Positions 2,602 to 42,082 of a DNA stretch of 64,000 nt are shown here, in pieces. Position 1 is the first letter of the stretch. Each line of letters starts with the position of its first letter. Location of the stretch: assembly GCF_017348835.2 (NCBI RefSeq), contig NZ_CP071375.1; one strand, given 5' to 3'. The notes below the pieces were generated by a model. That model saw only the letters and a program-made list of their open reading frames with translations, made no database searches and was not told where the DNA came from. A program made the translations under genes and the position numbers. Source of the DNA: Escherichia coli. Its GTDB lineage: Bacteria; Pseudomonadota; Gammaproteobacteria; Enterobacterales; Enterobacteriaceae.

Positions 2602-2607
2602 TTAAAA

Positions 2608-5248: not shown

Positions 5249-5269
5249 GTTCAGGTTACATAAAAAATA

Positions 5270-6147: not shown

Positions 6148-6208
6148 TGACGGTTCGGATAAACAAAATGCGGCGCAGCTTCCGTATCCGGGCTGCGCCG
6201 CAGGAACA

Positions 6209-6415
6209 TCAGCGGTAGCGCGAAGGCCAGATTTGCTCAGGCTTGAAGCCTAACGCTTCGGCAATTAACCTTTCGCCTTTGGGCCAGCGGCGGGTAAGCG
6301 CATTAGCCAGCGTGGAGGACGCCAGACCTGCCTGACGCGAAAGCGCTGACAGCGAAGTGCCTCGTTTTTTCAGCCCGGCGATAATGTCGGCAGGATGCCA
6401 GTCCTGCAGCATCAT
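6209..6415 (-). CDS. Ner/Nlp(SfsB)-family small DNA-binding protein
   Basis: 68 aa; WHPADIIAGLKKRGTSLSALSR...STLANAL...WPKGE...WPSRY matches the Ner/Nlp family. Confidence 0.8.
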   Translation of the reverse strand: MMLQDWHPADIIAGLKKRGTSLSALSRQAGLASSTLANALTRRWPKGERLIAEALGFKPEQIWPSRYR

Positions 6416-6873: not shown

Positions 6874-7035
6874 AAAGGCAGCCTCCAGTATGTGGTTTGA
6901 AAACCACCACCAGAGGTTCCAATCTCATGGGTGGTGGACTGAACGAGGTTGGAACTACCGGCCATACTGGAACCGGCGCACCTTACGGTGCCCCCGCCCA
7001 GCCCACCATAATTTTGGTGTAGCTAAGCGCGCGAC

Positions 7036-7058
7036 ATAAAAAAAGACGCAGACGCGTC
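7036..7058 (-). terminator. Possible intrinsic terminator for the AT-rich two-gene operon
   Basis: Minus-strand hairpin gacgc-gtct-gcgtc followed by a 7-nt U-run, about 190 bp downstream of the 534-aa ORF. Confidence 0.4.
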
Positions 7059-7243
7059 ACGTGTCGCCAGTATGGTTATATTTCGGGGTTCCAATCCCGG
7101 CACCTGATTTTGCAGGTGCGGGTAAAAGATACCGCTTTCGGTTGAAAACGGCAAGGGGAAGTCGTGGAATAGAGATCGCAGATTGTTATAAATATACACA
7201 ATAGTTAATGTTAACAAAGACGGCACATATATTAACTTTACTC

Positions 7244-8848: not shown

Positions 8849-8860
8849 AATAAATTTTCC

Positions 8861-22907: not shown

Positions 22908-24294
22908 ATCGTGAGAACGAGGCGAATATTAGCGATGCCCACCCACAATGTCAAAGCCTGTTTTTTAAATTTGAAATCGTTTGCTGAAATAATCTGCATT
23001 TTGTCGTTTATTCCGACACAACTGGCTTTTTTTCACACTTTTGCGGCTCGGATCGAGGGTATTTCCATAGCCAACGTCCAGTAACCATTCGCCAGTAAAA
23101 CAGCACGGCCCGCACAGCCCAGTCGGCAAACATTCCCATCCAGACACCAACCACACCCCAGCCAAGCATGATTCCCAGCACATAACCGACTACAACCCGA
23201 CAACCCCACATGCTCAACATCGAAACCCACATGGCGTAACGGGCATCACGAGCACCTTTAAATCCAGCGGGTAGCACCCATGAGGCGGACCAAATAGGCA
23301 TAAATAAAGCATTTAGCCAAATCAGAATCACAACGACATGTTTAACCTGTGGATCCTGGGTGTAAAACGATGCCATAAGCCCGGCAAAGGGAGCCGTTAG
23401 CCAGGCGATGGCCGTTAATCCAAGAGTGGACAGCCAGAACACATGCCGCAACTGAATCTCTGCTTGCGCTATCTGCCCTACCCCCAACCTTCGGCCTGTA
23501 ATGATCGTAGAAGCAGAGCCGAGCGCACTTCCGGGTAAGTTGATAAGAGCCGCAATTGAAAACGCGATAAAATTTCCGGCAATAACACTGGTCCCCATCC
23601 CGGCAACGAACATTTGGGTTAATAACCGACCACTGGTAAATAACACTGATTCGACACTCGCTGGAATACCAATCCCCATGACTTCCCAGATAATGCTAAA
23701 ATTCAGCGGTTTAAAATAGCTCTTTAACGAAATCCTTAGCGCAGGATTAAAACCAATCGCCAGCACCCACAAAATTGCAACTGCGCCAATATAACGAGAA
23801 ATGGTTAAACCCAACCCAGCCCCGACAAATCCCAGTCCCGGCCAGGAGAAAAGGCCGTAAATCAATATGCCGCTAATAATAATATTAAGAATATTCAGGC
23901 TACCGTTAATCAGTAGCGGTATTTTCGTATTCCCTGCACCACGAAGTGCCCCGCTACCAATCAAAGTGATGGCAGCTGCTGGATAACTGAGTACCGTCAG
24001 CTCCAGATAAGTCAACGCCAGTGCTTTAACTTCTGTCGTGGCATCACCCGCAACGAAATCAATAATTTGTTCGCCAAAATGATGAATAAGCGTTGCCAAC
24101 AGTACGGCAAACAAAGTCATGATCACCAATGACTGCCGCGTCGCCACCCTCGCTCGTCGTCGATCCCGCTTACCGAGACTAAATGCCACAACGACAGTAG
24201 TACCAAGATCGATAGCAGCAAAAAAAGCCATAATGACCATATTGAAGCTGTCTGAACCGCCCCGGGTTTCCTGGAGAGTGTTTTATCTGTGAAC

Positions 24295-25182
24295 TCAGGC
24301 TGCCAGATCATTATTTCCGATGGAAGCATAATAAGCTTTTTCTGCTTCTGCCGGAGGAATATGGCCCAGCCTTTCCAGCAATCGTCGATTGTTATACCAG
24401 TCCACCCACGTTAGTGTGGCCAGTTCCACTTCTGTCCGGTTTTTCCAGCTCTTACGGTGTATTACCTCCGCTTTGTAAAGACCATTGATGCTCTCAGCCA
24501 TCGCGTTGTCATACGAGTCGCCAGTACTCCCTGTTGATGCCAGTAATCCGGCTTCCTTAAGCCGCTGCGTGTAGGCCAGCGATACATACTGAGAACCTTT
24601 ATCACTGTGATGGATTGTGCCGGACGGCCGACGGGCCCACAACGCCTGCTCCAGTGCATCCAGCACGAATGTTGTTTCCATGGATGATGAGACCTGCCAT
24701 CCCACGATGTATCCGGCGAACACATCAATGATGAACGCCACATAAACGAAGCCCTGCCATGTGCTTACCCAGGTAAAATCAGCCACCCACAACTGGTCTG
24801 GACGTTCTGCCACGAACTGACGGTTTACGCGGTCGCATGCGGCAACGGCTTTCCGGCTGACGGTAGTGCGGACCTTTTTACCCCGGAGAACACCGGCAAG
24901 TCCCATAACTGCCATGAGACGTGCCACAGTGCATCTGGCCACTCTGATACCTTCCCGTAACAACTGACGCCAGACTTTACGCACACCGTATACCTGGTGA
25001 TTTTCATCGTATACGCGCTGTATCTCTTTCTTCAGCCAGTCATCGTGCTGCGCACGGGCACTGCGTTTATCCGGATGATGTCGCTGTTGCTGACAATGGT
25101 AATACGTTGACGGGGCAATATGCAGTTCGCTGCATACCGGTCCGACCCCGTACTGCTCACGCAGCTTATCCAGCAGTGGCAT
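24295..25182 (-). CDS. IS3-family transposase OrfB
   Basis: 295 aa, near-identical to 12141-13028. Confidence 0.85.
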   Translation of the reverse strand: MPLLDKLREQYGVGPVCSELHIAPSTYYHCQQQRHHPDKRSARAQHDDWLKKEIQRVYDENHQVYGVRKVWRQLLREGIRVARCTVARLMAVMGLAGVLRGKKVRTTVSRKAVAACDRVNRQFVAERPDQLWVADFTWVSTWQGFVYVAFIIDVFAGYIVGWQVSSSMETTFVLDALEQALWARRPSGTIHHSDKGSQYVSLAYTQRLKEAGLLASTGSTGDSYDNAMAESINGLYKAEVIHRKSWKNRTEVELATLTWVDWYNNRRLLERLGHIPPAEAEKAYYASIGNNDLAA

Positions 25183-25508
25183 TATTTTTTCCAGAGGCGG
25201 TCGAACTCCGCCTTCGCAAAATAAGCGGAAGCCTGGCGAAGGATATCGTTACTGCGGCGCAGTTCACGATTTTCACGTTCCAGCTCTTTCAGACGCTGAC
25301 GTTCAGCGGTGGTGAGTCCACCATCACCACTCCCGGTATCCCGCTCATGCTGGCGAACCCAGACACGCAGAGTCTCCGGCGTACAGCCAATCTTTGGGGC
25401 AATGGAACAAATTGCCGCCCACTGTGAGTCATATTCATCCTGACTTTCCAGAACCATACGAATCGCCCGCTGACGGACTTCGGGGGAAAAACGAGTATTT
25501 TTAGTCAT
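25182..25508 (-). CDS. IS3-family transposase OrfA
   Basis: 108 aa, identical to 11815-12141 product. Confidence 0.85.
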
Positions 25509-25968
25509 CCTGTTTACCTCTTTCTCAGGGAGTTTAGTCTCCAGGATTTCCGGGGCGGTTCAGTCCGCCAATCCCACGCCGGCCATCGCATCTTTTCCCA
25601 GCCAACTGACCAGAAAAGTGCTCAGGACACCCATCAGCAGGACACAGGCATTCTCCATGTAGATAGGAACAGCAAGCGGGGTTATCTCGCGCCAGAACAA
25701 CACTTTGTAACTCTTGCGTTTGGCGTGCCAGCGAGTGCCGTGAACAACCTGGCGTAAAGCAGAGGAGATATTCAAAGCCGACCTTAATTGCAGAAAGTGA
25801 AACCACATTTCAAATGATGAGGGAGAATCAGCAAAGCTGCAAAGATTTTCGCCAACAAATTGTCTGCAAATGCAACAAACTGTTGATAGAAACGGCAAAC
25901 AGTTGGGAAATTTAAAAATCGGGTTTGACAAAAGATTTTTCGCCGTTAAGATGTGCCTCAACAGCGAT

Positions 25969-28375: not shown

Positions 28376-28451
28376 TCCTCTGTAGTTCAGTCGGTAGAAC
28401 GGCGGACTGTTAATCCGTATGTCACTGGTTCGAGTCCAGTCAGAGGAGCCA
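28376..28451 (+). tRNA. asnV: tRNA-Asn (GUU)
   Basis: Third identical 76-nt Asn tRNA copy, with a downstream hairpin terminator. Confidence 0.95.
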
Positions 28452-28456
28452 AATTC

Positions 28457-28486
28457 AAAAAAGCCTGCTTTCTAGCAGGCTTTTTG
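28457..28486 (+). terminator. asnV terminator
   Basis: Stem gcctgc/gcaggc with T-run. Confidence 0.55.
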
Positions 28487-28509
28487 CTTTCTAATTACCA
28501 ACTCTTTGG

Positions 28510-29070
28510 TCATTCCAGATCAGCGTGTCGGGTAAACATTGTGGCACTGCTTTCACCCAGTTCCGACATCAACTGCAGAACAATTGCATCATAAGTAATA
28601 AAGCAGAGTTGCTCAAAAGCTGAGCCCATTGGTTGTGCGAAAGCGCCTGCAACACGATTGTTATCGTCTTTCACACTTCCTGGTAGTACCAACACAGATT
28701 GAGCTAATTTACCGATCGTCGAATCTGCTTTCATAGTTACCAGAGCTACGTTTACTCCGCTATCAACTGCTTTTTGTGCCAGACTTTTCAAACTGGTAGT
28801 TTCACCACTGCCTGACCCAATAATTAATAGATCTCCAGGTTGGGTATGCGGGGATGATATTTCTCCCACAACGCTTACTGAAAAACCTAAATGCAGCAAG
28901 CGATTAGCAAAAGCGCGAATAGCAATGCCACTGCGACCAGCTCCCTGCAAAAAAATATGCCGGGCATTTCTGATTTGCGAAATAAACTGTGCAGCCTGAG
29001 CATCGTCAATCTTCAGCGCATTACTCTCTAATTCATGCAGAATATTAATAGTATTTTCCTGAACACTCAT
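28510..29070 (-). CDS. SIS-domain sugar-phosphate isomerase (6-phospho-3-hexuloisomerase-like)
   Basis: 186 aa with SIS features (FLQGAGRSG...LLIIGSGSGET). Confidence 0.65.
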   Translation of the reverse strand: MSVQENTINILHELESNALKIDDAQAAQFISQIRNARHIFLQGAGRSGIAIRAFANRLLHLGFSVSVVGEISSPHTQPGDLLIIGSGSGETTSLKSLAQKAVDSGVNVALVTMKADSTIGKLAQSVLVLPGSVKDDNNRVAGAFAQPMGSAFEQLCFITYDAIVLQLMSELGESSATMFTRHADLE

Positions 29071-29084
29071 TTTTCTCTCCCTTT

Positions 29085-29837
29085 TTAAGCAATAGTCCGG
29101 CCACCATCCATTAAAATGGTTTGTCCCTGAATATAAGAGTTATCTTTATCTGCCAAAAATATTGCCAGGTTAGCCACATCATCGATAGTCCCCAGACGAC
29201 GGACGGGTATTTTTTCCAGGACAGCGTCTAAATCGGCTTGTGTTGGATAGTTGACCCGCATCATCTCTCCGGTGTCTATTAAGCGAGGAGCGATCGCATT
29301 AACATTGACGCCTTTTGGTCCTAACTCTTTTGCCAGCCCACGAATCAATCCTTCGCCTCCCGCTTTACTGGCAGGATAACTCACACCGCCCCCAGTCCCC
29401 GAAAGCGCTGATCCCGATGAGATATAAACAATAGATCCCTTATTTGTCAGGAAATCATCATAAAACGCCTTAACGGTATTAAACAAACCCGATAAGTTAA
29501 TTGCGATAGTCTTATTCCATTCCTCAAAAGAAATATTGTTAACTTTATTGGCAAATGCCACACCGGCATTTAATATCAACACATCAATGCGACCAAAGGT
29601 AGCAAATACCTTTTCCCGAACATCCACTAATGCCTGTGGATCGGAGACATCTGTTTTAACAAACAGCGATTTAACATCGCCAAAAGTTAACTCTGCTGCA
29701 GTGGCCTTGCCGTTCTCTTCGTTATAGTCAACAATAACAGTATGTGCACCACGATCAGCAAATTGTTTAGCTATCCCTTTGCCAATACCGTGAGCACCTC
29801 CGGTAACTAAAACCACTTTACCTGCAAAATTACTCAT
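29085..29837 (-). CDS. Short-chain dehydrogenase/reductase (SDR) family oxidoreductase
   Basis: 250 aa; N-terminal VTGGAHGIGKGIA dinucleotide-binding motif. Confidence 0.75.
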   Translation of the reverse strand: MSNFAGKVVLVTGGAHGIGKGIAKQFADRGAHTVIVDYNEENGKATAAELTFGDVKSLFVKTDVSDPQALVDVREKVFATFGRIDVLILNAGVAFANKVNNISFEEWNKTIAINLSGLFNTVKAFYDDFLTNKGSIVYISSGSALSGTGGGVSYPASKAGGEGLIRGLAKELGPKGVNVNAIAPRLIDTGEMMRVNYPTQADLDAVLEKIPVRRLGTIDDVANLAIFLADKDNSYIQGQTILMDGGRTIA

Positions 29838-29934
29838 TACTTTTCTCCATTAAAGATATTTTTTAGCTGAGGTTTTCCTCCCGATATGAAATCGAAAACC
29901 TCACTTAACTGGATGTGAAATTTTTAGATTGTGA

Positions 29935-30579
29935 TCACTGAACAGCGATTTTTAATGCCTGATAACTTTCACGAGGCTGTTTGTTAAATAAGGCACCACC
30001 AACAACAATAAGGTCAGCCCCTGCTTCTTTAACTTGTTTTACATTATCAAGATTAACGCCACCATCCACTTCAATTTGAATATCTCTGCCAGATATCATT
30101 TTTTTGGTATTACGGATTTTCTCCAGACTTTTATGAATAAATGTCTGGCCTGGTTGCCCTGGGTTAATTGTCATTAACAATATATAATCAATATCATCCA
30201 ATAAATATTCGATTACAGATTCAGGTGTCCCAGGATTAAGCACAACACCTGCTTTGCGACCCGCCTTTTTGATTTTTTGAATAATATAATGTACATGTGG
30301 CGTCGATTCATAATGTACAGAAATCATCTCCGCCCCGGTATTGATTACATCATCAATATGTCGCTCAGGATTTGCCAGCATCATGTGCACGTCAAAGATC
30401 ATCGAACTGGCTTTTTTCATTGCTGCTATTTGATTTGGGCCAAAGGCAATATTACTGACATAAGTGCCATCCATTAAATCAACGTGCAATATTTCGGTTT
30501 GTTCCTCTTCCAGAAAATGAATTTCATCTTTCAGGCGTAAAATATCCGCGCCAAATATAGAAGGTAATATTTTTGCCAT
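29935..30579 (-). CDS. Ribulose-phosphate 3-epimerase-family protein (SgcE/AlsE-like)
   Basis: 214 aa with Rpe-family features. Confidence 0.7.
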   Translation of the reverse strand: MAKILPSIFGADILRLKDEIHFLEEEQTEILHVDLMDGTYVSNIAFGPNQIAAMKKASSMIFDVHMMLANPERHIDDVINTGAEMISVHYESTPHVHYIIQKIKKAGRKAGVVLNPGTPESVIEYLLDDIDYILLMTINPGQPGQTFIHKSLEKIRNTKKMISGRDIQIEVDGGVNLDNVKQVKEAGADLIVVGGALFNKQPRESYQALKIAVQ

Positions 30580-30601
30580 GTTAAAACTCCAGAATATTAA
30601 A

Positions 30602-31855
30602 TCAATGTAATACGGTACTCAACCAATAGGTTAAAATTTCCCACGGGCCGGTTAATACAAAATCAGTACCTTGTCCTTGCAAGCCTACACCGGCTCCAGC
30701 TAAAAATGGCGTTGCCCCTGGTGCGACATAACCGCCTAAATACATCACTACAACGCAGAATAACAAGGTCGAGATAATCGAACGAATCACGTTACCGTTG
30801 CTCGCCATTACGGTCATGGTGGTCATATAAATAATTGACATCAATACGCCAATTGGGAAGATCTTAATATCAGGCAATACCAGAGCACATAGCATGGTTA
30901 AAGGAATGGTAATTACTGTCACGGTGACCGTCGCCTGATCCCCCAACGCTAGTGCACAATCCATACCGATGTTTAATTCAGCATCTTTACCCATCTGTTT
31001 TTGCATGATTTCTTTGGCACTTTTCCCTATTGGGTTAAGACCTTCCATCAGCACACCGACCACTTTAGGTAACAATACCATTACGCCAGCAACCCCCATC
31101 GCCATGGGAACAATTGTGGTAATTGCCTGTTTCGTTAAAACTCCGAGTAATGCGCCAACGATAACACCGATAATTGCAGGTTCACCAAAGACACCCAGGC
31201 GTTTTTGCACACTGTTTAAGTCAACATCTAACTTATTTAACCCTGGGATGTAATCAATGATTTTATTTACTACCCAGGCGAACGGTAGAGTCCAGCCGAT
31301 ATGAATCATCGTGGTACAGGTTGTTCCCTCGAGTCCATAATATTTTTGCCATCTGGGCGCAATCAAATCGCCAATAAACAGAGCCGCAATACTCAAAGCC
31401 ACCGCGACAGAGAAGCCGATGATAAAACTGTCGAACACAAAATATGCCAGAGCGCCCGGAACTAAAAAATGCATATAGTTCCAGATATCAACATTTAACG
31501 TTTTGGTTAATTTCAGGCGCACCAGTATCAGGTTAAGTACGATGCCAACTGGTATCACTAATGCGGCAAAAGGTGCTACCCATGCAGCAGCACCGACTGC
31601 TGGCCAACCAATATCTGCAACCGTAAAACCACTACCTACTTTTGAGTAAAACTCAATAGCTGGCTGTAATGAACTATTTAATAAACCAACAACCAAACCT
31701 AAACCAATAAAACCAATACCGACTGTGATGCCCGACTTGATCGCGGCACCGGGTTTCATTCTGAACACCAGACCTAAAATAAATATCACCAGCGGCAGTA
31801 TTGCAGTTGCCCCCATTCCGGTGATTGTTTCCATTAAATTTTTCAACATTTCCAT
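30602..31855 (-). CDS. PTS EIIC component, galactitol (GatC/SgcC) family
   Basis: 417-aa polytopic membrane protein with GatC-family sequence. Confidence 0.8.
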   Translation of the reverse strand: MEMLKNLMETITGMGATAILPLVIFILGLVFRMKPGAAIKSGITVGIGFIGLGLVVGLLNSSLQPAIEFYSKVGSGFTVADIGWPAVGAAAWVAPFAALVIPVGIVLNLILVRLKLTKTLNVDIWNYMHFLVPGALAYFVFDSFIIGFSVAVALSIAALFIGDLIAPRWQKYYGLEGTTCTTMIHIGWTLPFAWVVNKIIDYIPGLNKLDVDLNSVQKRLGVFGEPAIIGVIVGALLGVLTKQAITTIVPMAMGVAGVMVLLPKVVGVLMEGLNPIGKSAKEIMQKQMGKDAELNIGMDCALALGDQATVTVTVITIPLTMLCALVLPDIKIFPIGVLMSIIYMTTMTVMASNGNVIRSIISTLLFCVVVMYLGGYVAPGATPFLAGAGVGLQGQGTDFVLTGPWEILTYWLSTVLH

Positions 31856-31875
31856 TTTTATTATTCCTGTCAGGT

Positions 31876-32169
31876 TTAGCTATTTGCTAATTCAGTTAAT
31901 AACTCTCCTAATTTCTTACGTAATGCTCCTTCATTAATACCCGTTACAAAACCTGCAACACTCATATGTGGTTTCCCAATATCACCTTTATAGTTATTAG
32001 TTGTGAGTACAATATCTGCATGAGCCATCTCAGAAGAAAGTTCAGCCATACTGCATTTGTTGATTTTAAATGCCGTAATACCATATTCAGCACATACTGA
32101 CTTCACTTCATCAGCAGCAAGCGTAGATGTAGCGACACCGCTACCACAAGCAACAAGAATATTAATCAT
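31876..32169 (-). CDS. PTS EIIB component
   Basis: 97 aa with N-terminal ILVACGSGVATS cysteine-loop motif. Confidence 0.75.
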   Translation of the reverse strand: MINILVACGSGVATSTLAADEVKSVCAEYGITAFKINKCSMAELSSEMAHADIVLTTNNYKGDIGKPHMSVAGFVTGINEGALRKKLGELLTELANS

Positions 32170-32187
32170 AATAAACTCCAGTTTTTA

Positions 32188-32682
32188 CTATTGGATTATT
32201 TTGGACACAAAAAGTGCTTTTGCATCATCGACGGGAAGTGTCAGTAAGCTTTGGTAAAATTCTTCATTTTGGAGATGGTTAAATAATGACTTTAACAATC
32301 GAAGCTGGTCAGCAGGATCCGTAACAATAAGATTAACGACGAGTCTGACCCACAATATTCCATCTTCATCAGCCCTGTTCACAGGTATTGCGTCTGGCAG
32401 ACGGATGATATAAATAGCCGGTTGATTCGCATGTTCACTATCACAGTGTGGTATAGCGATAGAATAACCTTCCAGTTCTATTCCTGTCGGATATTCCGCT
32501 TCGCGTTTACGCATAGCATTGAGCCAGCTCTCTTTCACCGTATTCGTTTCACGATGCGTGTTATAAATATGTTCAAGCACGGCATCGTAGTTCTGTAGTC
32601 CCGCACCATCGGCAACACTGATCGATATCATATCCTTCCCCCTCACCCCACAATGCTCACATGAGCATTGAACAATCTTCAT
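32188..32682 (-). CDS. PTS EIIA component (type 2 family); start uncertain
   Basis: Contains AIPHCDSEH active-site-His region; a shorter product from an internal Met near 32634 is plausible. Confidence 0.65.
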   Translation of the reverse strand: MKIVQCSCEHCGVRGKDMISISVADGAGLQNYDAVLEHIYNTHRETNTVKESWLNAMRKREAEYPTGIELEGYSIAIPHCDSEHANQPAIYIIRLPDAIPVNRADEDGILWVRLVVNLIVTDPADQLRLLKSLFNHLQNEEFYQSLLTLPVDDAKALFVSKIIQ

Positions 32683-32967
32683 ATGAGCAGTTATAGCACA
32701 ACGATCCTGTGGATGAATGACGAGATCTGAGAAATTAAATCCAGATCACAAAAGCACATAATGGCGACAGTATTTATGCTCATATGAGCAAATCATGATT
32801 CAAAAAATGATTTCTTCGAAAAAAATGAGGTAAAACTGGCAATATGCAGAGGATGCACTCAATAGAGGACGCTAAGCAAGCATCGCCATGGATGCTCACT
32901 TGATAATTAGGAAATGATTACATTTGGCAAAGCTGATTCGAAGGGAGAAGGCGTGTCGTAGTGAGTT

Positions 32968-33723
32968 CTAACAGGTTATTACTGACGTGTATTTTGCGAC
33001 TTCGGCAATCCCCTCTTTGTCGGCATGATCGTTGGTTATAAGGGCGGTGATCTCCGACCAGTCGCAGATCTTAAACAAACTGCTGCGCTCAAACTTGGTG
33101 TAATCGCCGAGGATATATTTTTTGTCTGAGTGCGAAATTATCGTGCGATCCAAAAACGCATCAGAAGAAGAAGGCGTCGATGGACCAGTCATGTTACTAA
33201 AGCCGTCGGTTCCAATAAAACAGAGATCAACATGTATATCGTTGATCATAGATACCGCCCACCCCCCAAACACTGAGGAACTCTTTCTACGCAGTTCGCC
33301 GCCAAAGAGAAAAACCTGGTTGTCAGATTCAATCAACACACTGGCAACGGGGAGCGAATCTGTGAAGATTTTAAACCCAGATTTCATACATAACAGGTTA
33401 GCCAGCTCAAAAGTGGTACTGCCCGTACCGATAATCATCGAACTATTAGGTGGAATGAAATCAAGCGCTTTGCGAGCAATCGCCTTCTTATAAGAGTTAT
33501 TTTCTTTTTCCCTGACCTGAAAGGGATGCTCTATGGCCCTTTGCTTTAAAGTCGCCCCACCATGGCTTTTGATCAGCAGCCCTTTTTGTTCAAGATGGGT
33601 CAAATCTTTCCTGATGGTTTCATACGTTACTTCATACTTTCGTGCAAGATCACTGACATAGACCGTACCTGCCGACATTAAGTCTTCAAGTATTAACTTT
33701 CGCCTTTCATCAACCAGATACAT
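32968..33723 (-). CDS. DeoR-family transcriptional regulator
   Basis: 251 aa; N-terminal HTH (RRKLILEDLMSAGTVYVSDLARKYEVTYETIRKDL) and C-terminal sugar-phosphate sensor region. Confidence 0.8.
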   Translation of the reverse strand: MYLVDERRKLILEDLMSAGTVYVSDLARKYEVTYETIRKDLTHLEQKGLLIKSHGGATLKQRAIEHPFQVREKENNSYKKAIARKALDFIPPNSSMIIGTGSTTFELANLLCMKSGFKIFTDSLPVASVLIESDNQVFLFGGELRRKSSSVFGGWAVSMINDIHVDLCFIGTDGFSNMTGPSTPSSSDAFLDRTIISHSDKKYILGDYTKFERSSLFKICDWSEITALITNDHADKEGIAEVAKYTSVITC

Positions 33724-34071
33724 CCTTCCTCCTGAAAACTATTACCCATCTTAGAAAACGCCAAGCATAGCACAGATGATGCAAACAAAAACAAACACTA
33801 ACAGTGGAAAGTACAAATAAACCCAATAAAGACAATAGTTCAAAAACCATATATCCGATTGATAATAAATGAGTTTTTATTATTCATTACAACGCCACTG
33901 TACAATCCCAATTTGTCCCAATTGGCTTAATTTATTAATTATTTGTTTTTGTTGGTTTTTAATATCATAAAAATCAATTAGTTATAAATTTTGTGATTCA
34001 GATCTCAATTGACAACCAATATTTACCAATAGCATACTTGGCTTTAGTTACTTAACGACAGGCAAAATGAA

Positions 34072-34608
34072 ATGAAAACAAAGATTGCTATCGCAAGCGA
34101 TGATGTAGGTTTTGCACGTAAAGAGGAGATAAAAAAATACCTCATAGAAGAGAAAAACATGGAGATCGTGTACGATCCCGTCACATGTAAGGAACAAGGT
34201 GTCAATAACTTCGCGCGTCTGGCCGACGAAATGGCAGGCATTATTCAACGCGATGAGTGCCGTCTGGGAATTTACATTTGTGGGACTGGCATTGGCTTTA
34301 CTTGTCAGATCAACAAACACTGGGGCATAAGAGCCGTTGCGGTTACTAACCCCTACTCCGCAAAGCGGGCGCGACTCAGCAATAACGCACAAGTTATTGG
34401 ACTGGGTTGCCGGGTCAACGATCTCGAATACAGCAAAATGATTGTCGATGCATGGTTGGATAACCCATTCGACTTCACCACCGCCAGAGAAAATTCTAAA
34501 AAGAACTTGCTAGAAGCTGAACGTAACGATAATGCATTGCTGGTTAAGCCCGCTGATGTACGCTGGAATATGGGTTTCCGACCAGATGATGAAAAATCTG
34601 AGGGTTAA
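34072..34608 (+). CDS. RpiB/LacA/LacB-family sugar-phosphate isomerase
   Basis: 178 aa with RpiB-family features. Confidence 0.7.
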   Translation: MKTKIAIASDDVGFARKEEIKKYLIEEKNMEIVYDPVTCKEQGVNNFARLADEMAGIIQRDECRLGIYICGTGIGFTCQINKHWGIRAVAVTNPYSAKRARLSNNAQVIGLGCRVNDLEYSKMIVDAWLDNPFDFTTARENSKKNLLEAERNDNALLVKPADVRWNMGFRPDDEKSEG

Positions 34609-34611
34609 TGT

Positions 34612-35982
34612 ATGGAACTGATCACGCAATTTATAAACGATCTGGGAAATTTTATATTTATCCCGGTCATCTTCCTGGTACTGATGAAGATACTTGGCCG
34701 TCCTCTTTCAGAATGTATCTCGTCTGCCATCAAAGTCGGCATTGGTTTCATTGCGTTAACCATGACCATCAAACTGATGCTGGAAAAAATGCAACCGGCA
34801 GTCACCGGATTAGCAGAAGCAACAGGTTCCTCGCTCAGTGCCATCGATGTTGGTGGCGCAGCGACTGCAGTTATGGGATTTGGCTCCAGCATGGGCGCTA
34901 TCATTATTCCCCTCTGTGTTGCGGTAAATATTGCAATGCTGGTCGCCCGCCTGACTGACTGTGTTAACGTTGATGTTTTCAACCTTCATCAAAATGCGTC
35001 AATGGGGGCAATTGTTGGCGTCTATTCTGGCAGCTTCCTGTATGGCGCATTGACCGCCGCGCTATTCCATGTCTGGGCGCTGATCGCTGCCGATCTTGGT
35101 GCTAAAAATAACGAAAAATTCTTTAACCTGCCAAAAGGTGTTGCGATCTCTCACCCGGTTGCCAATACCTACTTACTTTTCGCTTATCCATTCAACTGGA
35201 TTTATGATCGCATCCCAGGCTTCCGTAATCTGAATGTGACCGCCGAAACTATTCAAAAACGGTTTGGCATTCTCGGCGATCCAACTATGGTTGGTTTTAT
35301 TATTGGTATTTTATTGGGCTTTTGTGGTTATGGCTGGAAATCCCCATACCACACCATAATCGCCAGCCTACAGTTAGGGATGTATCTGGCTGCGGTCATG
35401 CTTCTGTTGCCACGTATGACCTCTATCATGATGGAAGGGCTTGTTCCGCTTTCTAACGTAGCACGCAAAAAACTGGTCAAACGTTTCCCGGATCGTCAAA
35501 TCACTGTTGGCATGGACACTGCCCTGATTGTGGGTCATCCGTCAGTTATCGCCCCTGCATTATTACTGATTCCGGTAATTGTGATCCTCGCCGTAATCTT
35601 GCCTGGCAACCGCGTTATGCCACTGGGTGACCTCTCTCAGTTTGTGTTTTTCATTGCCTGCATGGTACCTGTTTTCAATGGCAACATTATTCGCACCTGG
35701 GTGACCTCGATCATATTGTTTGGTGGTGGTCTGTATATTGCGTCGTGGATGGCACCGGCTACCAACGAAGTCTTCCAGAAATTTGGTACAAACCCGGATG
35801 CCAGCGTGATGTACTCTTCGCTTAACCCGTCAGCGAATCCATTTACTGGTCTGTTTGCCGCCCTGAGCCATGTTGGAATCATTGGCTATGTGATGGCAGG
35901 TATCCTTTTGTTATCTATCGGATACTTAATTAAACAAAAATCACGTCGCCAGATTGAAACGGATTTGGAAAAAGCGCTTTAA
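34612..35982 (+). CDS. PTS EIIC component, galactitol family (second copy)
   Basis: 456-aa membrane protein, paralogous to the EIIC at 30602-31855. Confidence 0.8.
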   Translation: MELITQFINDLGNFIFIPVIFLVLMKILGRPLSECISSAIKVGIGFIALTMTIKLMLEKMQPAVTGLAEATGSSLSAIDVGGAATAVMGFGSSMGAIIIPLCVAVNIAMLVARLTDCVNVDVFNLHQNASMGAIVGVYSGSFLYGALTAALFHVWALIAADLGAKNNEKFFNLPKGVAISHPVANTYLLFAYPFNWIYDRIPGFRNLNVTAETIQKRFGILGDPTMVGFIIGILLGFCGYGWKSPYHTIIASLQLGMYLAAVMLLLPRMTSIMMEGLVPLSNVARKKLVKRFPDRQITVGMDTALIVGHPSVIAPALLLIPVIVILAVILPGNRVMPLGDLSQFVFFIACMVPVFNGNIIRTWVTSIILFGGGLYIASWMAPATNEVFQKFGTNPDASVMYSSLNPSANPFTGLFAALSHVGIIGYVMAGILLLSIGYLIKQKSRRQIETDLEKAL

Positions 35983-36005
35983 ATCTTTTACAGAGGAATA
36001 ATCAA

Positions 36006-36290
36006 ATGAAAAAAATATTAGTAGTTTGCGGAAACGGAATTGCCTCATCTTCCATCATGGTCTCTGTACTGCAGGACTTCCTGAAAGAAGAGAAAATTGA
36101 AGCGCAAGTCGATAAATCTTCGTTAATGGCATGCACCAGCGATACCTTCAACAGCTATGACCTGGTAGTTTCATCAACCAAACTCGATAACCCGGCCATT
36201 ACTACTCGTGTCATCGTTGGCGCTGGATTACTGACTGGTCTGGGCGAAGATGAGATTTTCGCTGCAGTTAAAGAAGAGATGTTGAAATAA
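36006..36290 (+). CDS. PTS EIIB component (second set)
   Basis: 94 aa with VVCGNGIASS motif. Confidence 0.75.
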   Translation: MKKILVVCGNGIASSSIMVSVLQDFLKEEKIEAQVDKSSLMACTSDTFNSYDLVVSSTKLDNPAITTRVIVGAGLLTGLGEDEIFAAVKEEMLK

Positions 36291-36300
36291 CAGGTGTGCA

Positions 36301-36759
36301 ATGAAATTTGAAATTCTGGTGAATGATGTTGATAACAGCATCAGTGACTATCAAACGGCGATCACCTTTGCTGGTACGCAATTATTGGAAAAAGGCTACA
36401 TCACTGCAGAATACATTGACGCCTGCCTGGAACGTGAAAAAAACTATCCGACAGGGCTAATGATGGCAAACGGTCAGGGTATCGCCATTCCCCATGCCGA
36501 TTACACGCTGGTAAATGTAAACAGTATCAGTATTGTTCGTTTCGCCAATGATGTCACTTTCGGGCAAATGGAAGATGCTGATTTAACAGTTGATTGTAGC
36601 ATTATGTTTAACCTGGCATTTGCCACCAGTGATCAACATATGTCGATATTGCGTCGTTTATTCACACTGTTTCAGGATAACGCCTTTGTTGAGACTTGCC
36701 GCAATTTACCTGCAACGCGCGTGGCTAAATATGTAGAGGATACGCTCGCAGCATCCTGA
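36301..36759 (+). CDS. PTS EIIA component (second set)
   Basis: 152 aa with GIAIPHAD active-site-His region. Confidence 0.7.
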   Translation: MKFEILVNDVDNSISDYQTAITFAGTQLLEKGYITAEYIDACLEREKNYPTGLMMANGQGIAIPHADYTLVNVNSISIVRFANDVTFGQMEDADLTVDCSIMFNLAFATSDQHMSILRRLFTLFQDNAFVETCRNLPATRVAKYVEDTLAAS

Positions 36760-36810
36760 AATTAAAAGGGCAGAATCAGCGGTACTGCCCTTTCTTCACT
36801 GATACGGCTA

Positions 36811-37788
36811 TTAATCCAGAAGTTTAATGGCCGTATCAAAATCAGTAATTAAGACATTCAAAAGTCCGGATTTCAGCGAAGCAAGGATGCCTTCATATTT
36901 TTCTTCTCCTCCAGCGACACCAATCACTTTTTTGGCTTTTTGTAGTTGATCCATCGAAATGCCAAATCCCAGACGTTCAATAGGACTATGAAGAATCTTC
37001 CCTTCCCTGTTGACCAACGAGATACACACATCCGCAGCGATATCTTGTTGAAACAAAGCTTCGCACCAGGTATCCGGAAATATTTTACACAAGCTTGAAG
37101 AACCAGATTTCCAGTCACCTATCCCGGTGATAACCACATCCAACTGTGAGTAATATTGCTGTGTATCTAATACCGCAGGATCACCTGCCAGTCTGGCAGC
37201 AAGCTCTTCGTCATCGACCCACATCGGCACGTACATTGGGTGCGCTTTTCCCTGCGAAATGGCTGCGATCTTATGAATAAGATCTATTGGCCCTTGACTG
37301 AACTCAATCCCCGGATGTACGCCAGATAACTGCACAACGTCTAAAGGAGGCAACTTGCTCAACTTACTGACCGTGCTTGATAATACACGCCCCCAGGCGA
37401 TCCCCACTTTCATACCTTCATGAAGAGATTGCATAAGATATTCAGCGGTGACTTCACCCAATTTGTGATTGAGTTCTTCTTGCGTCGTCCAGGATTCTGC
37501 AACTGAAAGAACAATTGCATCTTCCAGATGAAATTTTTTCCGTAGATTATTAGCGATTTCTTCATCCATCGCTTGCTGCTTAGGGAAGATAAACCTCACG
37601 TAATCCTGTTCGATCGCCTCATCGATCAATCTGGCAACTTTAAAGCGGGAAACGCCAAGCTCCTCTGCAATCTCAATCTTGGTTTTCATATCCGCAAAAT
37701 AACGTCTGACCACGAGCGAGTATATGTAGCGAGGATCGTAACCCTGCCAGCGGCTGTTTTTTTTCTGTTTCGTCATTCTCTTTTCCAT
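36811..37788 (-). CDS. SorC/DeoR-type sugar-binding transcriptional regulator
   Basis: 325 aa with N-terminal HTH and C-terminal sugar-binding domain typical of SorC-family regulators. Confidence 0.7.
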   Translation of the reverse strand: MEKRMTKQKKNSRWQGYDPRYIYSLVVRRYFADMKTKIEIAEELGVSRFKVARLIDEAIEQDYVRFIFPKQQAMDEEIANNLRKKFHLEDAIVLSVAESWTTQEELNHKLGEVTAEYLMQSLHEGMKVGIAWGRVLSSTVSKLSKLPPLDVVQLSGVHPGIEFSQGPIDLIHKIAAISQGKAHPMYVPMWVDDEELAARLAGDPAVLDTQQYYSQLDVVITGIGDWKSGSSSLCKIFPDTWCEALFQQDIAADVCISLVNREGKILHSPIERLGFGISMDQLQKAKKVIGVAGGEEKYEGILASLKSGLLNVLITDFDTAIKLLD

Positions 37789-37949
37789 TGATCATGTCAT
37801 CAGCAAACATGTATAAATCAGAAGAGTATAACGATTATGCTCATAAGAGATGCGCATATGAGAAGAAAATTATCATTTGTATGATTCGAAACAACCTGTT
37901 CTGGATGACGGAATGCTTACACAGACCGACAAACCAGACGTTTTGAATG

Positions 37950-38876
37950 TCAAAATCCGTTACGGTTGATATTCACAGGCATTCCCGATCGACGTTGCAA
38001 CGCAGCATTTGCGCGATTTACATCAACTTCTTGCCCGTTGATAAACGCCCGCAAAGATGGGGTTACAGGCAATGGCACTTTTCGGTCAGACTCATATTCT
38101 GCACGATTGCGCGACAGCGGCTCATGAACTTCCAGCCAGTTCGAGCCATCTGGTTCAGTGGTGTATTTTACTGGCTGGTCGATAATTTGCACACGCGTCC
38201 CAACAGGAACATTATCAAACAGATATTTGATATCGTCATTGCGCAGACGAATACAGCCCTGACTTACCCGAAGTCCAATACCAAAATTGGCATTGGTACC
38301 GTGGATGGCATACAACCTGCCAATATAAATCGCGTACAGCCCCATGGGATTATCGGGCCCCGCAGGAACAAATGCGGGCAAACTCTCCCCTCGTTTCGCA
38401 TATTCGCGCCGAGTGTTCGGCGTTGGCGTCCAGGTTGGAGCTTCTTGTTTACGTTCAACGGTAGTCACCCAGTTACGCGGGGTTTCTCGCCCAGCCTGGC
38501 CGATACCAATAGGAAAGACTTCCACAGTATTACTGTCTGGTGGGTAGTAATAAAGACGCATCTCAGCGACGTTAACCACAATCCCTTTACGAACAGTGGC
38601 GGGCAAAATCAGTTGCTGCGGAATGGTGAGTTGCGAGCCAGACTTCGGCAAGAAAACATCAGCGCCCGGGTTCGCTTCCAGCATGTTACTTAACCCTTGC
38701 CCGTATTGTGCGGCAAAAGTCTCCAGCGGCTGGGTATTGTGATCAGGAACAGTTACAGTAAACGACTGCCCCACTAAACGGCTACCCTCTGGAGGTAATG
38801 GATAAGTTACCGCCAGGCTAGTATGGCTGGCAAAAAGCAGAGCAAATGAGCAAAGAATATTTACACGACGCATCAT
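37950..38876 (-). CDS. ldtA: L,D-transpeptidase
   Basis: ErfK/YbiS/YcfS/YnhG-family sequence with signal peptide. Confidence 0.85.
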
Positions 38877-41447: not shown

Positions 41448-41807
41448 TTACGAAAGAAGATGGCATTGCGGAATAGCCCGACTTCCTCGTGTTAACGTAT
41501 GACAAAATGCGTCATTGACAGCGGTTTCTCTGGAATGACAGATTTCATTCAGATAATGGATTAATGCTACAGTCCCACCAGCCGGACCAGTCAGCAAACG
41601 GGCATTGTGTTCTGCAATCAAAATTACCGTCGTTCCCTCAGAATGAGCGAGCCATTCTGGTACGGATATCTCGCTTTCAGCTGCTATCAATAGCTGCACT
41701 GAATAATCGCTATACGCATCTGATAATGATTGCACAGACCCACCGTTAAGAGGCTGGAAATCTTGCTGCCAGTCCTCACGGATAAAACCGCAGCCTCTAC
41801 AGTGCAC
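41448..41807 (-). pseudogene. Gene remnant upstream of cobU (possibly the 3-prime end of a cobyric-acid-synthase-like gene)
   Basis: 119-aa ORF immediately upstream of cobU on the same strand with no convincing start context; assignment is by position only. Confidence 0.3.
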
Positions 41808-41809
41808 TG

Positions 41810-42082
41810 TTGGTCAGTGCCTGCGAAGCGGACATTATCGCGCTGGTGCTTAATGCGGACGCACCGTGGTCACCTTTTTCGCCAGGCTTTACCTCGTCAA
41901 TGAATCGCCCGGTCATTGGAGTAGTAACCAAAGCAGATTTAGCCAACATGGAACAAATATCTTTGGTGAAATGTTGGTTACGGGAAGCTGGAGCGCACAA
42001 CGTGTTAGTAACCAGTGCGGTTAATAACAATAGAGTTGCAGAACTTTTTGCCTTGCTGCATATAGAAGAAGTCTGTCGCTAA
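41810..42082 (+). pseudogene. yoeF: EutP/PduV-like fragment (yoeF-type remnant)
   Basis: 90-aa fragment resembling the C-terminus of small EutP/PduV GTPases, at the cobU-yeeX junction. Confidence 0.4.

What the first reader, a model, noticed from the sequence alone, without database searches (positions are those of the whole stretch)
28452..37940. About 9.4 kb metabolic island between tRNA-Asn (asnV) and ldtA with two galactitol-family PTS systems
Starting right after asnV there are two complete EIIA/EIIB/EIIC sets of the galactitol family, each with its own regulator (DeoR-type and SorC-type), plus an SIS-domain isomerase, an SDR dehydrogenase, an Rpe-family epimerase and an RpiB/LacAB-family isomerase. 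Composition is AT-richer than core genes. The arrangement resembles sgc-type pentose/pentitol-like PTS clusters, so the enzyme set suggests uptake and conversion of a pentitol, ketose or rare sugar whose identity is not evident. No integrase is present.
Basis: partly seen in the sequence, partly recalled or inferred. Interest (0 to 1): 0.55.

Follow-up and report, generated by a model that had tools for sequence, protein, structure and literature searches.

The report
Twin PTS sugar-alcohol utilisation gene cluster
A 9.4-kb block of twelve intact genes found in about 4% of E. coli encodes two uptake systems and four enzymes for an unidentified sugar alcohol and a related sugar. It is an old, slowly eroding part of the chromosome, not a recently inserted mobile island.

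Summary
Between asnV and ldtA lie 12 intact genes: hxlB-like SIS isomerase, SDR, rpe, EIIC/B/A, DeoR, then RpiB-like isomerase, EIIC/B/A, then SorC. GC is 42.6% against 48.9% for the rest of the window.

The cluster is complete in 225 of 5,426 complete E. coli genomes and partial in 56 more. It is not a tRNA-integrated island. It has no integrase and no asnV repeat, and it starts 51 bp past the tRNA. Its divergence between phylogroups matches the flanking core genes, with dN/dS of 0–0.16.

The island-linked ldtA 3' end is the ancestral form, shared with E. fergusonii, so the common K-12-type "empty" junction is a derived allele. Partial copies abut IS1 or IS3.

Comparison with 40+ loci shows two modules. 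The first is a polyol module (PTS, dehydrogenase, 3-epimerase, SIS isomerase) under the SorC regulator, which has a conserved operator, TGCTCATATGAGCA. The second is a sugar module (RpiB-like, PTS, normally its own SIS gene, lost in E. coli) under DeoR, nested between SorC and its operon.

The substrate cannot be named; candidates are C4, C5 or C6 polyols. This is an uncharacterised variant of a known kind and of moderate interest.

The parts
28458..28485 (.). Symmetric hairpin with an A-run and a T-run. It is the asnV terminator and the likely terminator of the converging hxlB operon. It is backbone sequence, also present at empty sites.
28503..37949 (.). The whole accessory cluster: 9,447 bp, 42.6% GC.
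28510..29070 (-). hxlB-like SIS isomerase (186 aa), last gene of operon 1.
   Evidence: TIGR03127, 209.8 bits above cut-off 160; B. subtilis YckF 1m3s, E 9e-44
29085..29837 (-). Classical SDR dehydrogenase (250 aa). It has TGxxxGIG, Asp37 (my inference: NAD+ preference), and Ser-Tyr-x3-Lys. Inferred to be a polyol-phosphate dehydrogenase.
   Evidence: replaced by a GatD-like MDR enzyme in related loci
29935..30579 (-). Ribulose-phosphate 3-epimerase family protein (214 aa).
   Evidence: TIGR01163, 235 bits above 212.6; S. pyogenes Rpe 2fli 3e-56; AlsE 3ct7 3e-35
30602..31855 (-). EIIC of PTS 1 (Gat family, 417 aa).
31876..32169 (-). EIIB of PTS 1 (97 aa).
32188..32631 (-). EIIA of PTS 1 (147 aa; RefSeq start, matching the start in other genera). 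The AIPHC His motif is present. It evolves fast.
32654..32790 (-). Operon-1 control region. It holds three copies of the palindrome TGCTCATATGAGCA (32654-32667, 32676-32689, 32777-32790), a CRP-like half site inside 32732-32753, and a conserved TGCTATAA -10 next to 32690.
32968..33723 (-). DeoR/GlpR-family regulator (251 aa), assigned to operon 2.
33784..34038 (.). Divergent deoR/rpiB control region. It holds an inverted pair of AACAAAAACAAA (33784-33795 on +, 33942-33953 on -), a CRP-like site TGTGA-N6-TCTCA (33992-34007), and a promoter TTGACA-18-CATACT (34009-34038).
34072..34608 (+). RpiB/LacAB-family sugar-phosphate isomerase (178 aa; the catalytic Cys in the CGTGIG motif is kept).
34612..35982 (+). 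EIIC of PTS 2 (Gat family, 456 aa; 29% identical to EIIC 1).
36006..36290 (+). EIIB of PTS 2 (94 aa).
36301..36759 (+). EIIA of PTS 2 (152 aa). The SIS gene that follows it in other organisms is absent here; only 51 bp separate it from the sorC stop.
36811..37776 (-). SorC-family sugar-binding regulator (321 aa), assigned to operon 1.
37838..37864 (-). Two abutting degenerate copies of the same palindrome upstream of sorC, suggesting autoregulation.
37950..37974 (-). Last 7 codons plus stop of ldtA (..NINRNGF*). This is the ancestral-type 3' end, always linked to the cluster, and is replaced by 37 unrelated bp at K-12-type sites.

Best explanation
The cluster is a functional catabolic locus built from two linked galactitol-family PTS modules.

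Module 1 (EIIA-EIIB-EIIC-rpe-SDR-hxlB, minus strand) imports and phosphorylates a small polyol. It oxidises the polyol phosphate with NAD+ to a ketose phosphate. A 3-epimerase and a SIS (HxlB-type) isomerase then convert that into a pentose-phosphate or glycolytic intermediate.

Module 2 (rpiB-like-EIIC-EIIB-EIIA, plus strand) imports a related free sugar. An RpiB-type isomerase acts on its phosphate. In other bacteria the module ends with its own SIS isomerase. That gene is missing in E. coli, so module 2 probably depends on hxlB of module 1.

Module 1 is repressed by the SorC-type regulator through the palindrome TGCTCATATGAGCA, which also lies in front of sorC. Module 2 is controlled by the divergent DeoR-type regulator. 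Both promoters carry CRP-like sites. The DeoR/module-2 unit lies nested between sorC and the operon sorC controls.

The block came originally from low-G+C Gram-positive bacteria and has moved among Enterobacterales. In E. coli it is an old presence/absence polymorphism at asnV-ldtA, kept under purifying selection where present and lost through deletion.

Shown here: gene content, family assignments, conserved synteny, conserved motifs, distribution, and divergence.
Inferred: every enzymatic step, the regulator-operator pairing, and the dependence of module 2 on hxlB.
Not resolved: the substrates.

My ranking of substrates is:
- Hexitol/hexose of the allitol / D-allose / D-allulose kind, or another hexitol via a 3-hexulose 6-phosphate: about 0.3.
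- Tetritol/erythrulose: about 0.2.
- Pentitol: about 0.2.
- Something else: about 0.3.
For: Gene content and family assignments.

Selection:
- dN/dS is 0-0.16 for 11 of 12 genes between PE164 and LF82.
- dS is 0.02-0.13, against 0.076-0.13 for ldtA, cobT and cobS.
- Island identity tracks flank identity in five strains.

Module 1 is conserved as a unit in 30+ loci from Enterobacterales and Firmicutes.
- The SDR is interchangeable with a GatD-like Zn dehydrogenase, which points to a polyol-phosphate dehydrogenase step.
- hxlB is interchangeable with hxlA. In E. pallens hxlA sits between EIIB and EIIC.
- rpe is present in every complete locus.

Regulators:
- SorC lies directly upstream of and co-directional with module 1 in six single-module genera.
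- The palindrome sits at -43, -166 and -285 from the EIIA start in 11 of 12 Enterobacterales loci. 25 of 28 matches in 235 kb fall in those regions.
- In the window 5 of 6 matches lie in front of operon 1 or sorC.
- DeoR lies divergently beside module 2 wherever module 2 occurs alone: S. suis, Atopobium, Companilactobacillus, E. faecalis.
- An inverted AACAAAAACAAA pair, a CRP-like site and a promoter are conserved there.

Module 2 elsewhere ends in a SIS gene. E. coli and Salmonella lack it.

Origin:
- 66-76% nucleotide and up to 92% amino-acid identity to Enterococcus.
- Cluster G+C is below host flanks in E. coli, Citrobacter and Pseudocitrobacter.
- Flanking genes differ in each genus.
Against: No experiment or paper links these genes to a substrate; ten literature searches found nothing.

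No single known pathway uses a dehydrogenase, an Rpe-type epimerase and an HxlB-type isomerase in series, so at least one assigned activity must differ from its family's textbook reaction.

The regulator-operator pairing rests on co-occurrence only.

EIIA 1 shows five nonsynonymous and no synonymous differences between two strains, which could mean relaxed constraint.

Loss of the module-2 SIS gene could mean that module 2 is crippled rather than complemented.

IS-mediated erosion in 56 genomes shows the locus is dispensable in many settings.
Confidence: 0.7

Rival explanations
1. It is a classical tRNA-targeted genomic island that recently integrated at asnV and later lost its integrase.
For: It lies next to a tRNA gene that is a known integration hot spot. 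G+C is low and distribution is patchy. In Salmonella the same 12 genes lie beside a tyrosine integrase.
Against: - The left junction is 51 bp past the tRNA, beyond its terminator.
- There is no repeat of the asnV 3' end.
- In LF82, A23, PEC1003 and Z1323HEC0477 the integrase-bearing elements are separate. In LF82 the attR-like repeat of the asnV end precedes hxlB.
- Copies differ by up to 3%, in step with cobTSU and cbl-nac.
- The ldtA 3' end linked to the cluster is the ancestral one, shared with E. fergusonii.
Confidence: 0.05
2. Pentitol system. Ribitol or D-arabitol is taken up and oxidised to ribulose 5-phosphate. Rpe and RpiB then feed it into the pentose phosphate pathway, as in the PTS pentitol operons of Listeria and Lacticaseibacillus (known to me from the literature, not tested here).
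For: The epimerase scores as a true Rpe, above the equivalog cut-off, and is nearer to S. pyogenes Rpe than to AlsE. The RpiB-family isomerase is nearest to E. coli RpiB. A polyol-phosphate dehydrogenase is inferred.
Against: - It gives no role to the SIS isomerase, which is among the most constant parts of module 1 and a usual part of module 2, or to the hxlA alternative.
- Aldopentoses are poor PTS substrates, so module 2 is left unexplained (general knowledge).
Confidence: 0.2
3. Hexitol/hexose system. One version is allitol (module 1) and D-allose (module 2) meeting at D-allulose 6-phosphate and going to fructose 6-phosphate. The other is a hexitol phosphate oxidised to a 3-hexulose 6-phosphate that HxlB turns into fructose 6-phosphate.
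For: - In K-12, D-allose goes through RpiB and the Rpe-family enzyme AlsE to fructose 6-phosphate (PMC12216980). This cluster has both enzyme families plus a dehydrogenase.
- HxlB and HxlA both act on 3-hexulose 6-phosphate and replace each other in related loci.
- A HAD phosphatase resembling hexitol phosphatase HxpB follows hxlB in Enterococcus.
Against: - The epimerase is closer to Rpe than to AlsE.
- In the allulose version hxlB is redundant.
- In the 3-hexulose version the dehydrogenase would need an unusual C3 regiochemistry and RpiB has no role.
Confidence: 0.3
4. The cluster is a decaying, cryptic remnant with no present function in E. coli.
For: It is absent from 95% of genomes. IS1/IS3-truncated copies occur in 56 genomes, and LF4-1 has an internal stop in EIIC 2. 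The module-2 SIS gene is lost, and EIIA 1 shows only nonsynonymous changes.
Against: All 12 ORFs are intact in the window and in all five other full-length copies inspected. Several proteins are identical across strains despite 1.5-2.5% nucleotide divergence, for example EIIC 2 with 32 synonymous and 0 nonsynonymous differences.
Confidence: 0.08

Closest known systems
gat operon of E. coli (gatYZABCD-R; galactitol PTS, TC 4.A.5)
   Same: Both have separate EIIA, EIIB and EIIC of the same family, a polyol-phosphate dehydrogenase step and a DeoR-type repressor. GatD-like enzymes actually replace the SDR in related loci.
   Different: - The EIICs are only 33-34% identical to GatC and score below the GatC cut-off.
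- The dehydrogenase here is an SDR.
- There is no tagatose-bisphosphate aldolase (GatYZ). An epimerase and a SIS isomerase are present instead.
sgc operon of E. coli K-12 (sgcREAQCBX; substrate unknown)
   Same: Both have a Gat-family PTS with an Rpe-family epimerase and a DeoR-type regulator, and both lack a known substrate.
   Different: Identity is 31-36% to SgcC, 31% to SgcE and 26% to SgcR. There is no SgcQ or SgcX. SDR, SIS and RpiB-type enzymes and a SorC regulator are added.
PTS pentitol operons of Gram-positive bacteria (Listeria D-arabitol/xylitol operons, Lacticaseibacillus casei ribitol region; recalled from the literature, not retrieved here)
   Same: Both have a PTS, a polyol-phosphate dehydrogenase, rpe and rpiB. 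The Gram-positive relatives of this cluster also have PRD/MtlR-type activators.
   Different: Those operons also carry transketolase, transaldolase or phosphoketolase and use Zn-dependent dehydrogenases. To my knowledge none is described with an obligatory HxlB/HxlA-type gene.
D-allose (als) pathway of E. coli K-12
   Same: RpiB-type isomerase followed by an Rpe-family 3-epimerase to fructose 6-phosphate (PMC12216980).
   Different: The als system uses ABC uptake plus a kinase, not a PTS. It has no dehydrogenase and no SIS isomerase. The epimerase here is nearer to Rpe than to AlsE.
Ribulose-monophosphate enzymes HxlA/HxlB, and the tetritol route (erythrulose-1-P epimerase EryC, isomerases LerI and DerI)
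   Same: HxlB-family membership by score and the HxlA alternative in related loci. The tetritol route likewise uses dehydrogenase, then epimerase, then a carbonyl-shifting isomerase, then an RpiB-family isomerase, with erythrulose-1-P lyase as an alternative exit (PMC10733421).
   Different: No formaldehyde-fixing partner is present in E. coli. The epimerase and carbonyl-shifting isomerase of the tetritol route belong to other protein families. PTS uptake of tetritols is not known.

Membership tests
Galactitol (Gat) family PTS, TC 4.A.5 | EIIC with the EIIC-GAT domain | tested here: met
   TIGR00827 at E 2e-94 and 1e-104; PF03611 on relatives
Galactitol (Gat) family PTS, TC 4.A.5 | Separate soluble EIIA (PTS_EIIA_2 type) and EIIB (PTS_IIB type) for each EIIC | tested here: met
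   Pfam on orthologues
gat operon (galactitol utilisation) | Orthology to GatC above the curated cut-off | tested here: not met
   317 and 351 bits against cut-off 542; 33-34% identity to K-12 GatC
gat operon (galactitol utilisation) | GatD Zn dehydrogenase and GatYZ tagatose-bisphosphate aldolase | tested here: not met
   No such genes in 28503-37949
sgc operon | Orthologues of SgcC and SgcE, and presence of SgcQ and SgcX | tested here: not met
   31-36% and 31% identity; no SgcQ or SgcX homologue
tRNA-integrated genomic island | Integrase gene next to the tRNA | tested here: not met
tRNA-integrated genomic island | Direct repeat of the tRNA 3' end at the distal border | tested here: not met
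   the junction lies 51 bp past the tRNA
tRNA-integrated genomic island | Atypical composition and patchy distribution | tested here: met
   42.6% against 48.9% GC; 225 of 5,426 genomes
6-phospho-3-hexuloisomerase (HxlB/PHI) | Sequence score above the equivalog cut-off | tested here: met
   TIGR03127, 209.8 bits against 160; YckF 1m3s E 9e-44
6-phospho-3-hexuloisomerase (HxlB/PHI) | Adjacent 3-hexulose-6-phosphate synthase (HxlA), as in formaldehyde fixation | tested here: not met
   No HxlA in the window cluster. HxlA replaces HxlB, rather than accompanying it, in L030, L031 and L033.
6-phospho-3-hexuloisomerase (HxlB/PHI) | Catalysis of 3-hexulose 6-phosphate to fructose 6-phosphate | not testable with these tools
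   Needs an enzyme assay
Ribulose-phosphate 3-epimerase (Rpe) | Sequence score above the equivalog cut-off | tested here: met
   TIGR01163, 235.3 bits against 212.6; AlsE model 178.5 against 271; SgcE-type model 116.6 against 376
SorC-family regulators | Sugar-binding domain with N-terminal HTH, and a cognate operator at the regulated promoter | tested here: inconclusive
   Family match. A conserved palindrome co-occurs with sorC. Binding was not tested.
DeoR/GlpR-family regulators | HTH_DeoR plus DeoRC domains, next to the regulated sugar operon | tested here: met

The most novel reading that the evidence does not exclude
The locus and its many relatives encode an undescribed PTS-dependent route in which enzymes of the ribulose-monophosphate/pentose-phosphate set (Rpe, HxlB or HxlA, RpiB) are used catabolically on a 3-ulose phosphate.

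The most striking version is a tetritol/erythrulose pathway:
- Polyol phosphate goes to erythrulose phosphate (SDR).
- An epimerisation follows (Rpe-like).
- Erythrulose 1-phosphate goes to erythrulose 4-phosphate (HxlB-like, the four-carbon counterpart of its textbook reaction).
- Erythrulose 4-phosphate goes to erythrose 4-phosphate (RpiB-like).
- HxlA-type loci instead cleave erythrulose 1-phosphate to DHAP and formaldehyde.

This is the only scheme I found that gives every conserved gene of both modules a role in series.
Probability: 0.2. Interest if true: 0.65.

Novelty: new variant of a known kind. Interest (0 to 1): 0.4.

Why it matters
Accessory sugar and polyol systems decide which E. 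coli lineages can occupy a nutrient niche in the gut. Polyols and rare sugars are now common food additives.

This cluster is intact in clinically relevant lineages (LF82, ST1193-type and avian strains). It also occurs in Salmonella, Klebsiella oxytoca, Citrobacter, Enterococcus faecalis and Streptococcus suis. Every database gives it only generic names.

Three things would make it useful:
- Naming the substrate would fill a gap in metabolic models of these organisms.
- It would assign a catabolic role to HxlB/HxlA-type enzymes outside formaldehyde fixation.
- The locus is a clean example of how a tRNA-adjacent 'island' can be an old resident whose common 'empty site' is the derived state.

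Tried and rejected
1. A repeat of the asnV 3' end at the far border: none.

2. Source of the 37 bp that replace the island at K-12-type sites: not found in the window or in any fetched locus.

3. Literature: ten full-text searches found no study of this cluster (asnV/PTS, hexuloisomerase/PTS, asnV/erfK/island, pentitol, erythritol, lmo0508, hxlB/phylogroup, 3-hexulose/PTS, tetritol, Providencia/erythritol). The two E. coli papers that mention hxlB refer to a different hxlB-ptsG-rpiR locus or to a KEGG term.

4. Solved structures: the SDR has only generic FabG-like relatives, so no substrate clue.

5. Source names for eight proteins: all generic.

6. Rfam: only the tRNA.

7. The paper on AlsE/Rpe specificity determinants could not be read, so C5 against C6 specificity of the epimerase was not tested.

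8. Erythritol phenotype check. P. rettgeri is the erythritol-positive Providencia (PMC10796120), but the scan found the cluster in P. vermicola and not in the P. rettgeri representative. I lowered, but did not discard, the tetritol idea.

9. E. fergusonii context: ldtA there has other neighbours, so it gives the ancestral ldtA end but not the ancestral asnV-ldtA arrangement.

10. Two diverged ldtA alleles in metagenome contigs turned out to be E. coli-like on the asnV side. They do not date the polymorphism.

Full report
**What is there**

The window is E. coli chromosome, 100% identical to strain PE164. The gene order is yeeO-asnU-cbl-nac-asnV-[cluster]-ldtA-cobTSU. asnV lies at 28376-28451.

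Twelve intact genes follow.
- On the minus strand: an hxlB-like SIS isomerase, an SDR, rpe, EIIC, EIIB, EIIA and a DeoR-type regulator.
- On the plus strand: an RpiB/LacAB-type isomerase, EIIC, EIIB and EIIA.
- On the minus strand again: a SorC-type regulator.

The two EIICs are 29% identical to each other. They are 31-36% identical to K-12 SgcC and GatC. They therefore belong to the galactitol family but are orthologues of neither characterised nor named K-12 system.

G+C is 42.6% against 48.9% for the rest of the window. Rfam finds only the tRNA.

**Borders, and why this is not a tRNA island**

I compared the window with a genome that lacks the cluster.
- The left junction is 28502|28503. 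That is 51 bp after the tRNA and beyond its terminator hairpin.
- The right junction is 37974|37975, inside ldtA.
- The cluster-bearing allele encodes an LdtA that ends ..PVNINRNGF. The empty allele has 37 unrelated bp and ends ..PVQISSGSRQMF.

There is no integrase and no repeat of the asnV 3' end anywhere near the far border.

In LF82 a different element lies between asnV and hxlB. It carries an OLD-type nuclease and a UvrD helicase and is closed by a repeat of the asnV 3' end plus the terminator. Strains A23, PEC1003 and Z1323HEC0477 also carry integrase remnants beside a tRNA-Asn that are separate from the sugar genes. The element that uses the tRNA as an attachment site is therefore something else.

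**History in E. coli**

The cluster alone matches 281 of 5,426 complete genomes, and 225 of them over at least 80% of its length. It is always chromosomal, at 96.9-100% identity.

Between PE164 and the B2 strain LF82 the island genes are 97.4-98.8% identical. The flanking genes give cobT 97.4%, cobUS 98.0% and ldtA 96.5%. The same parallel holds for four more strains.

Synonymous divergence is 0.02-0.13 in the island and 0.076-0.13 in ldtA, cobT and cobS. dN/dS is 0-0.16 for eleven of the twelve genes. EIIC 2 has 32 synonymous and no nonsynonymous differences.

This is the signature of a long-resident, selected locus, not a recent arrival.

LdtA of E. fergusonii ends ..PVNINRTAF. Klebsiella, Citrobacter and Kluyvera proteins end PVNIN.. 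or PVNIS... The 3' end linked to the cluster is therefore ancestral, and the K-12-type end is derived. The common 'empty' site cannot be the pre-insertion state. It is best read as a derived allele, probably a deletion scar, that removed the cluster and clipped ldtA.

I could not find the source of its 37 bp.

The 56 partial copies are all anchored at the ldtA side. In the four I inspected they abut IS1 or IS3, which points to IS-mediated erosion from the asnV side.

**Relatives elsewhere**

A scan of one genome per species with EIIC 1 returned 36 loci. Look-ups from EIIC 2 added six more.

Module 1 (EIIA-EIIB-EIIC-rpe-dehydrogenase-SIS) recurs in:
- Pseudocitrobacter, Brenneria, Erwinia, Pantoea, Izhakiella, Citrobacter, K. 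oxytoca, Enterobacter, Entomohabitans and Providencia (EIIC 89-94% identical);
- Enterococcus, Streptococcus cuniculi and Breznakia (69-76%);
- bee-gut Lactobacillus, Paenibacillus and Bacillus relatives (about 60%).

The flanks differ in every genus. In Salmonella the same twelve genes lie beside an integrase.

Nucleotide identity is 76-81% to Citrobacter and 66-76% to Enterococcus. In three Enterobacterales the cluster is poorer in G+C than its flanks, while in Enterococcus it matches them. This fits an origin in low-G+C Gram-positives followed by spread and partial amelioration.

**Functional constraints from gene replacement**

- The SDR is replaced by a GatD-like Zn dehydrogenase in nine loci, while the rest of the operon stays. 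This is non-orthologous displacement at what is best read as a polyol-phosphate dehydrogenase step.
- The SDR has the classical cofactor and catalytic motifs, and an Asp at the end of the second strand that I read as NAD+ preference.
- rpe is present in every complete locus.
- The SIS gene is present in 29 loci. In three (two Propionispira species and Enterococcus pallens) it is replaced by a bona fide HxlA-type gene (275.6 bits, cut-off 200). In E. pallens that gene sits between EIIB and EIIC.

HxlA and HxlB share one substrate class, a 3-ulose phosphate, so such an intermediate is probably part of the route.

**Module 2 and a missing gene**

Module 2 occurs on its own in Streptococcus suis, Atopobium and Companilactobacillus. 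Its form there is deoR, then divergently rpiB-EIIC-EIIB-EIIA-SIS. In its native form it therefore has two isomerases.

E. faecalis has three Gat-family modules in tandem, each ending in its own SIS gene. Citrobacter, K. oxytoca and E. raffinosus keep the module-2 SIS gene. E. coli, Salmonella, Enterobacter wuhouensis, Entomohabitans and Providencia have lost it.

In E. coli only 51 bp separate EIIA 2 from the sorC stop. I infer that module 2 in E. coli relies on hxlB of module 1. That would explain why the two modules travel together.

**Regulation**

In six genera that have only module 1, sorC lies directly upstream and co-directional. In the two-module form the deoR/module-2 unit is inserted between sorC and its operon.

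An alignment of the 300-370 bp upstream of EIIA 1 from eleven Enterobacterales shows three conserved features:
- a 14-bp perfect palindrome, TGCTCATATGAGCA, in three or four copies;
- a conserved TGTGATC;
- a conserved TGCTATAA.

Across twelve loci, 25 of 28 matches (up to two mismatches, 235 kb searched) fall in these regions, at -43, -166 and -285 from the start codon. In the window the palindrome lies at 32654, 32676 and 32777, and in two degenerate abutting copies at 37838 and 37851 in front of sorC. There is one other weak match in 64 kb and none in the deoR-rpiB spacer.

The deoR-rpiB spacer has its own conserved set:
- an inverted pair of AACAAAAACAAA at 33784 and 33942;
- TGTGA-N6-TCTCA at 33992-34007;
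- TTGACA-18-CATACT at 34009-34038.

I therefore assign SorC to operon 1, with autoregulation, and DeoR to operon 2, with catabolite control of both. This rests on co-occurrence, not on binding data.

**What is the substrate?**

No source names it, and ten literature searches found no study.

- A pentitol fits the Rpe and RpiB scores. It leaves the nearly universal SIS gene and the HxlA alternative without a role.
- The allitol / D-allose / D-allulose series fits RpiB plus an Rpe-family epimerase, as in the K-12 als pathway (PMC12216980). It makes hxlB redundant.
- A hexitol oxidised to a 3-hexulose 6-phosphate fits HxlB and HxlA. It needs an unusual dehydrogenase regiochemistry.
- A tetritol/erythrulose route gives every gene a serial role. 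The known tetritol pathway uses a dehydrogenase, an epimerase, a carbonyl-shifting isomerase and an RpiB-family isomerase, with an erythrulose-1-phosphate lyase as an alternative exit (PMC10733421). However, the erythritol-positive Providencia is P. rettgeri (PMC10796120), and the scan found the cluster in P. vermicola.

I rank these at about 0.2 (pentitol), 0.3 (hexitol/hexose, both versions together) and 0.2 (tetritol), with 0.3 for something else. Only experiments can settle it.

**Verdict**

The additions are:
- The locus is an old, selected presence/absence polymorphism, and the majority 'empty' allele is the derived one.
- It is built of two modules, one nested inside the regulatory unit of the other.
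- The regulators can be assigned through conserved operators.
- Module 2 has lost an enzyme that module 1 still supplies.
- The HxlB/HxlA alternation points to a 3-ulose phosphate intermediate.

It is an uncharacterised variant of a familiar kind of system: worth a growth screen, but not a surprise in kind.

Noticed in passing
window 1-16498: The left end of the window is a separate integrase-associated island. It holds a tyrosine integrase (1-497, cut), IS66 (1063-3262), an integrase-domain protein (3536-4420), a MazEF-type toxin-antitoxin pair (5270-5860), an LA2681-family HEPN protein (7244-8848) next to a 946-aa hypothetical protein (8861-11701), and an IS3 (11815-13028). The IS3 truncates the Ig-like adhesin pseudogene yeeJ (13070-16498). 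The HEPN/large-protein pair could be a defence system.
   Followed up: no
window 23008-25808: yeeO, between asnW and asnU, is split by an IS3 insertion (24295-25508). RefSeq annotates the two halves as pseudogene fragments.
   Followed up: no
window 32188-32631: EIIA of PTS 1 evolves unusually fast. It has five nonsynonymous and no synonymous differences against LF82. It is 57-67% identical to other genera, while the adjacent EIIB and EIIC are 80-94% identical. It was not detected in Providencia vermicola (L010). The active-site His motif is kept.
   Followed up: partly
L003 (E. coli LF82) 1981-5779: LF82 carries an ATP-dependent (OLD-type) nuclease and a UvrD-helicase gene, a Gabija-like pair, in an element between asnV and hxlB. 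The element is closed by a repeat of the asnV 3' end and terminator.
   Followed up: partly
L055 (Enterococcus faecalis) 495-17365: Three galactitol-family PTS modules lie in tandem, each ending with its own SIS (HxlB-like) gene. The first also has a YjbQ-family gene and an Rpe-family gene. This suggests a set of transporters for related forms of one sugar family.
   Followed up: partly
L059 (Salmonella enterica) 3818-15357: The same twelve genes in the same order lie next to an ArsR-type HTH gene and a tyrosine integrase, between fimbrial/Ail-Lom genes and lysS-prfB-recJ. In Salmonella the block therefore looks like cargo of an integrative island.
   Followed up: no
L046 and L047 (metagenome contigs): These contigs carry an ldtA allele only 89.5% identical to the window, with an ABC-F ATPase gene upstream instead of cobT. 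The adjoining asnV-nac-cbl stretch is 97.7% identical. The ldtA 5' side is therefore itself a replacement or recombination point.
   Followed up: partly
window 41786-42082: A truncated EutP/PduV-family gene lies next to cobU. It is a remnant of the pdu/cob region that is complete (pocR, pduF) in LF82 and other strains.
   Followed up: no
PMC12928451, GR 29 of strain BEN2908 (not in the window): B2/ExPEC strains carry a different hxlB-like (SIS_PHI) gene next to a glucose-family PTS IIBC gene and an RpiR regulator. HxlB-type genes attached to PTS operons without HxlA are thus a recurring, unexplained theme in E. coli.
   Followed up: no
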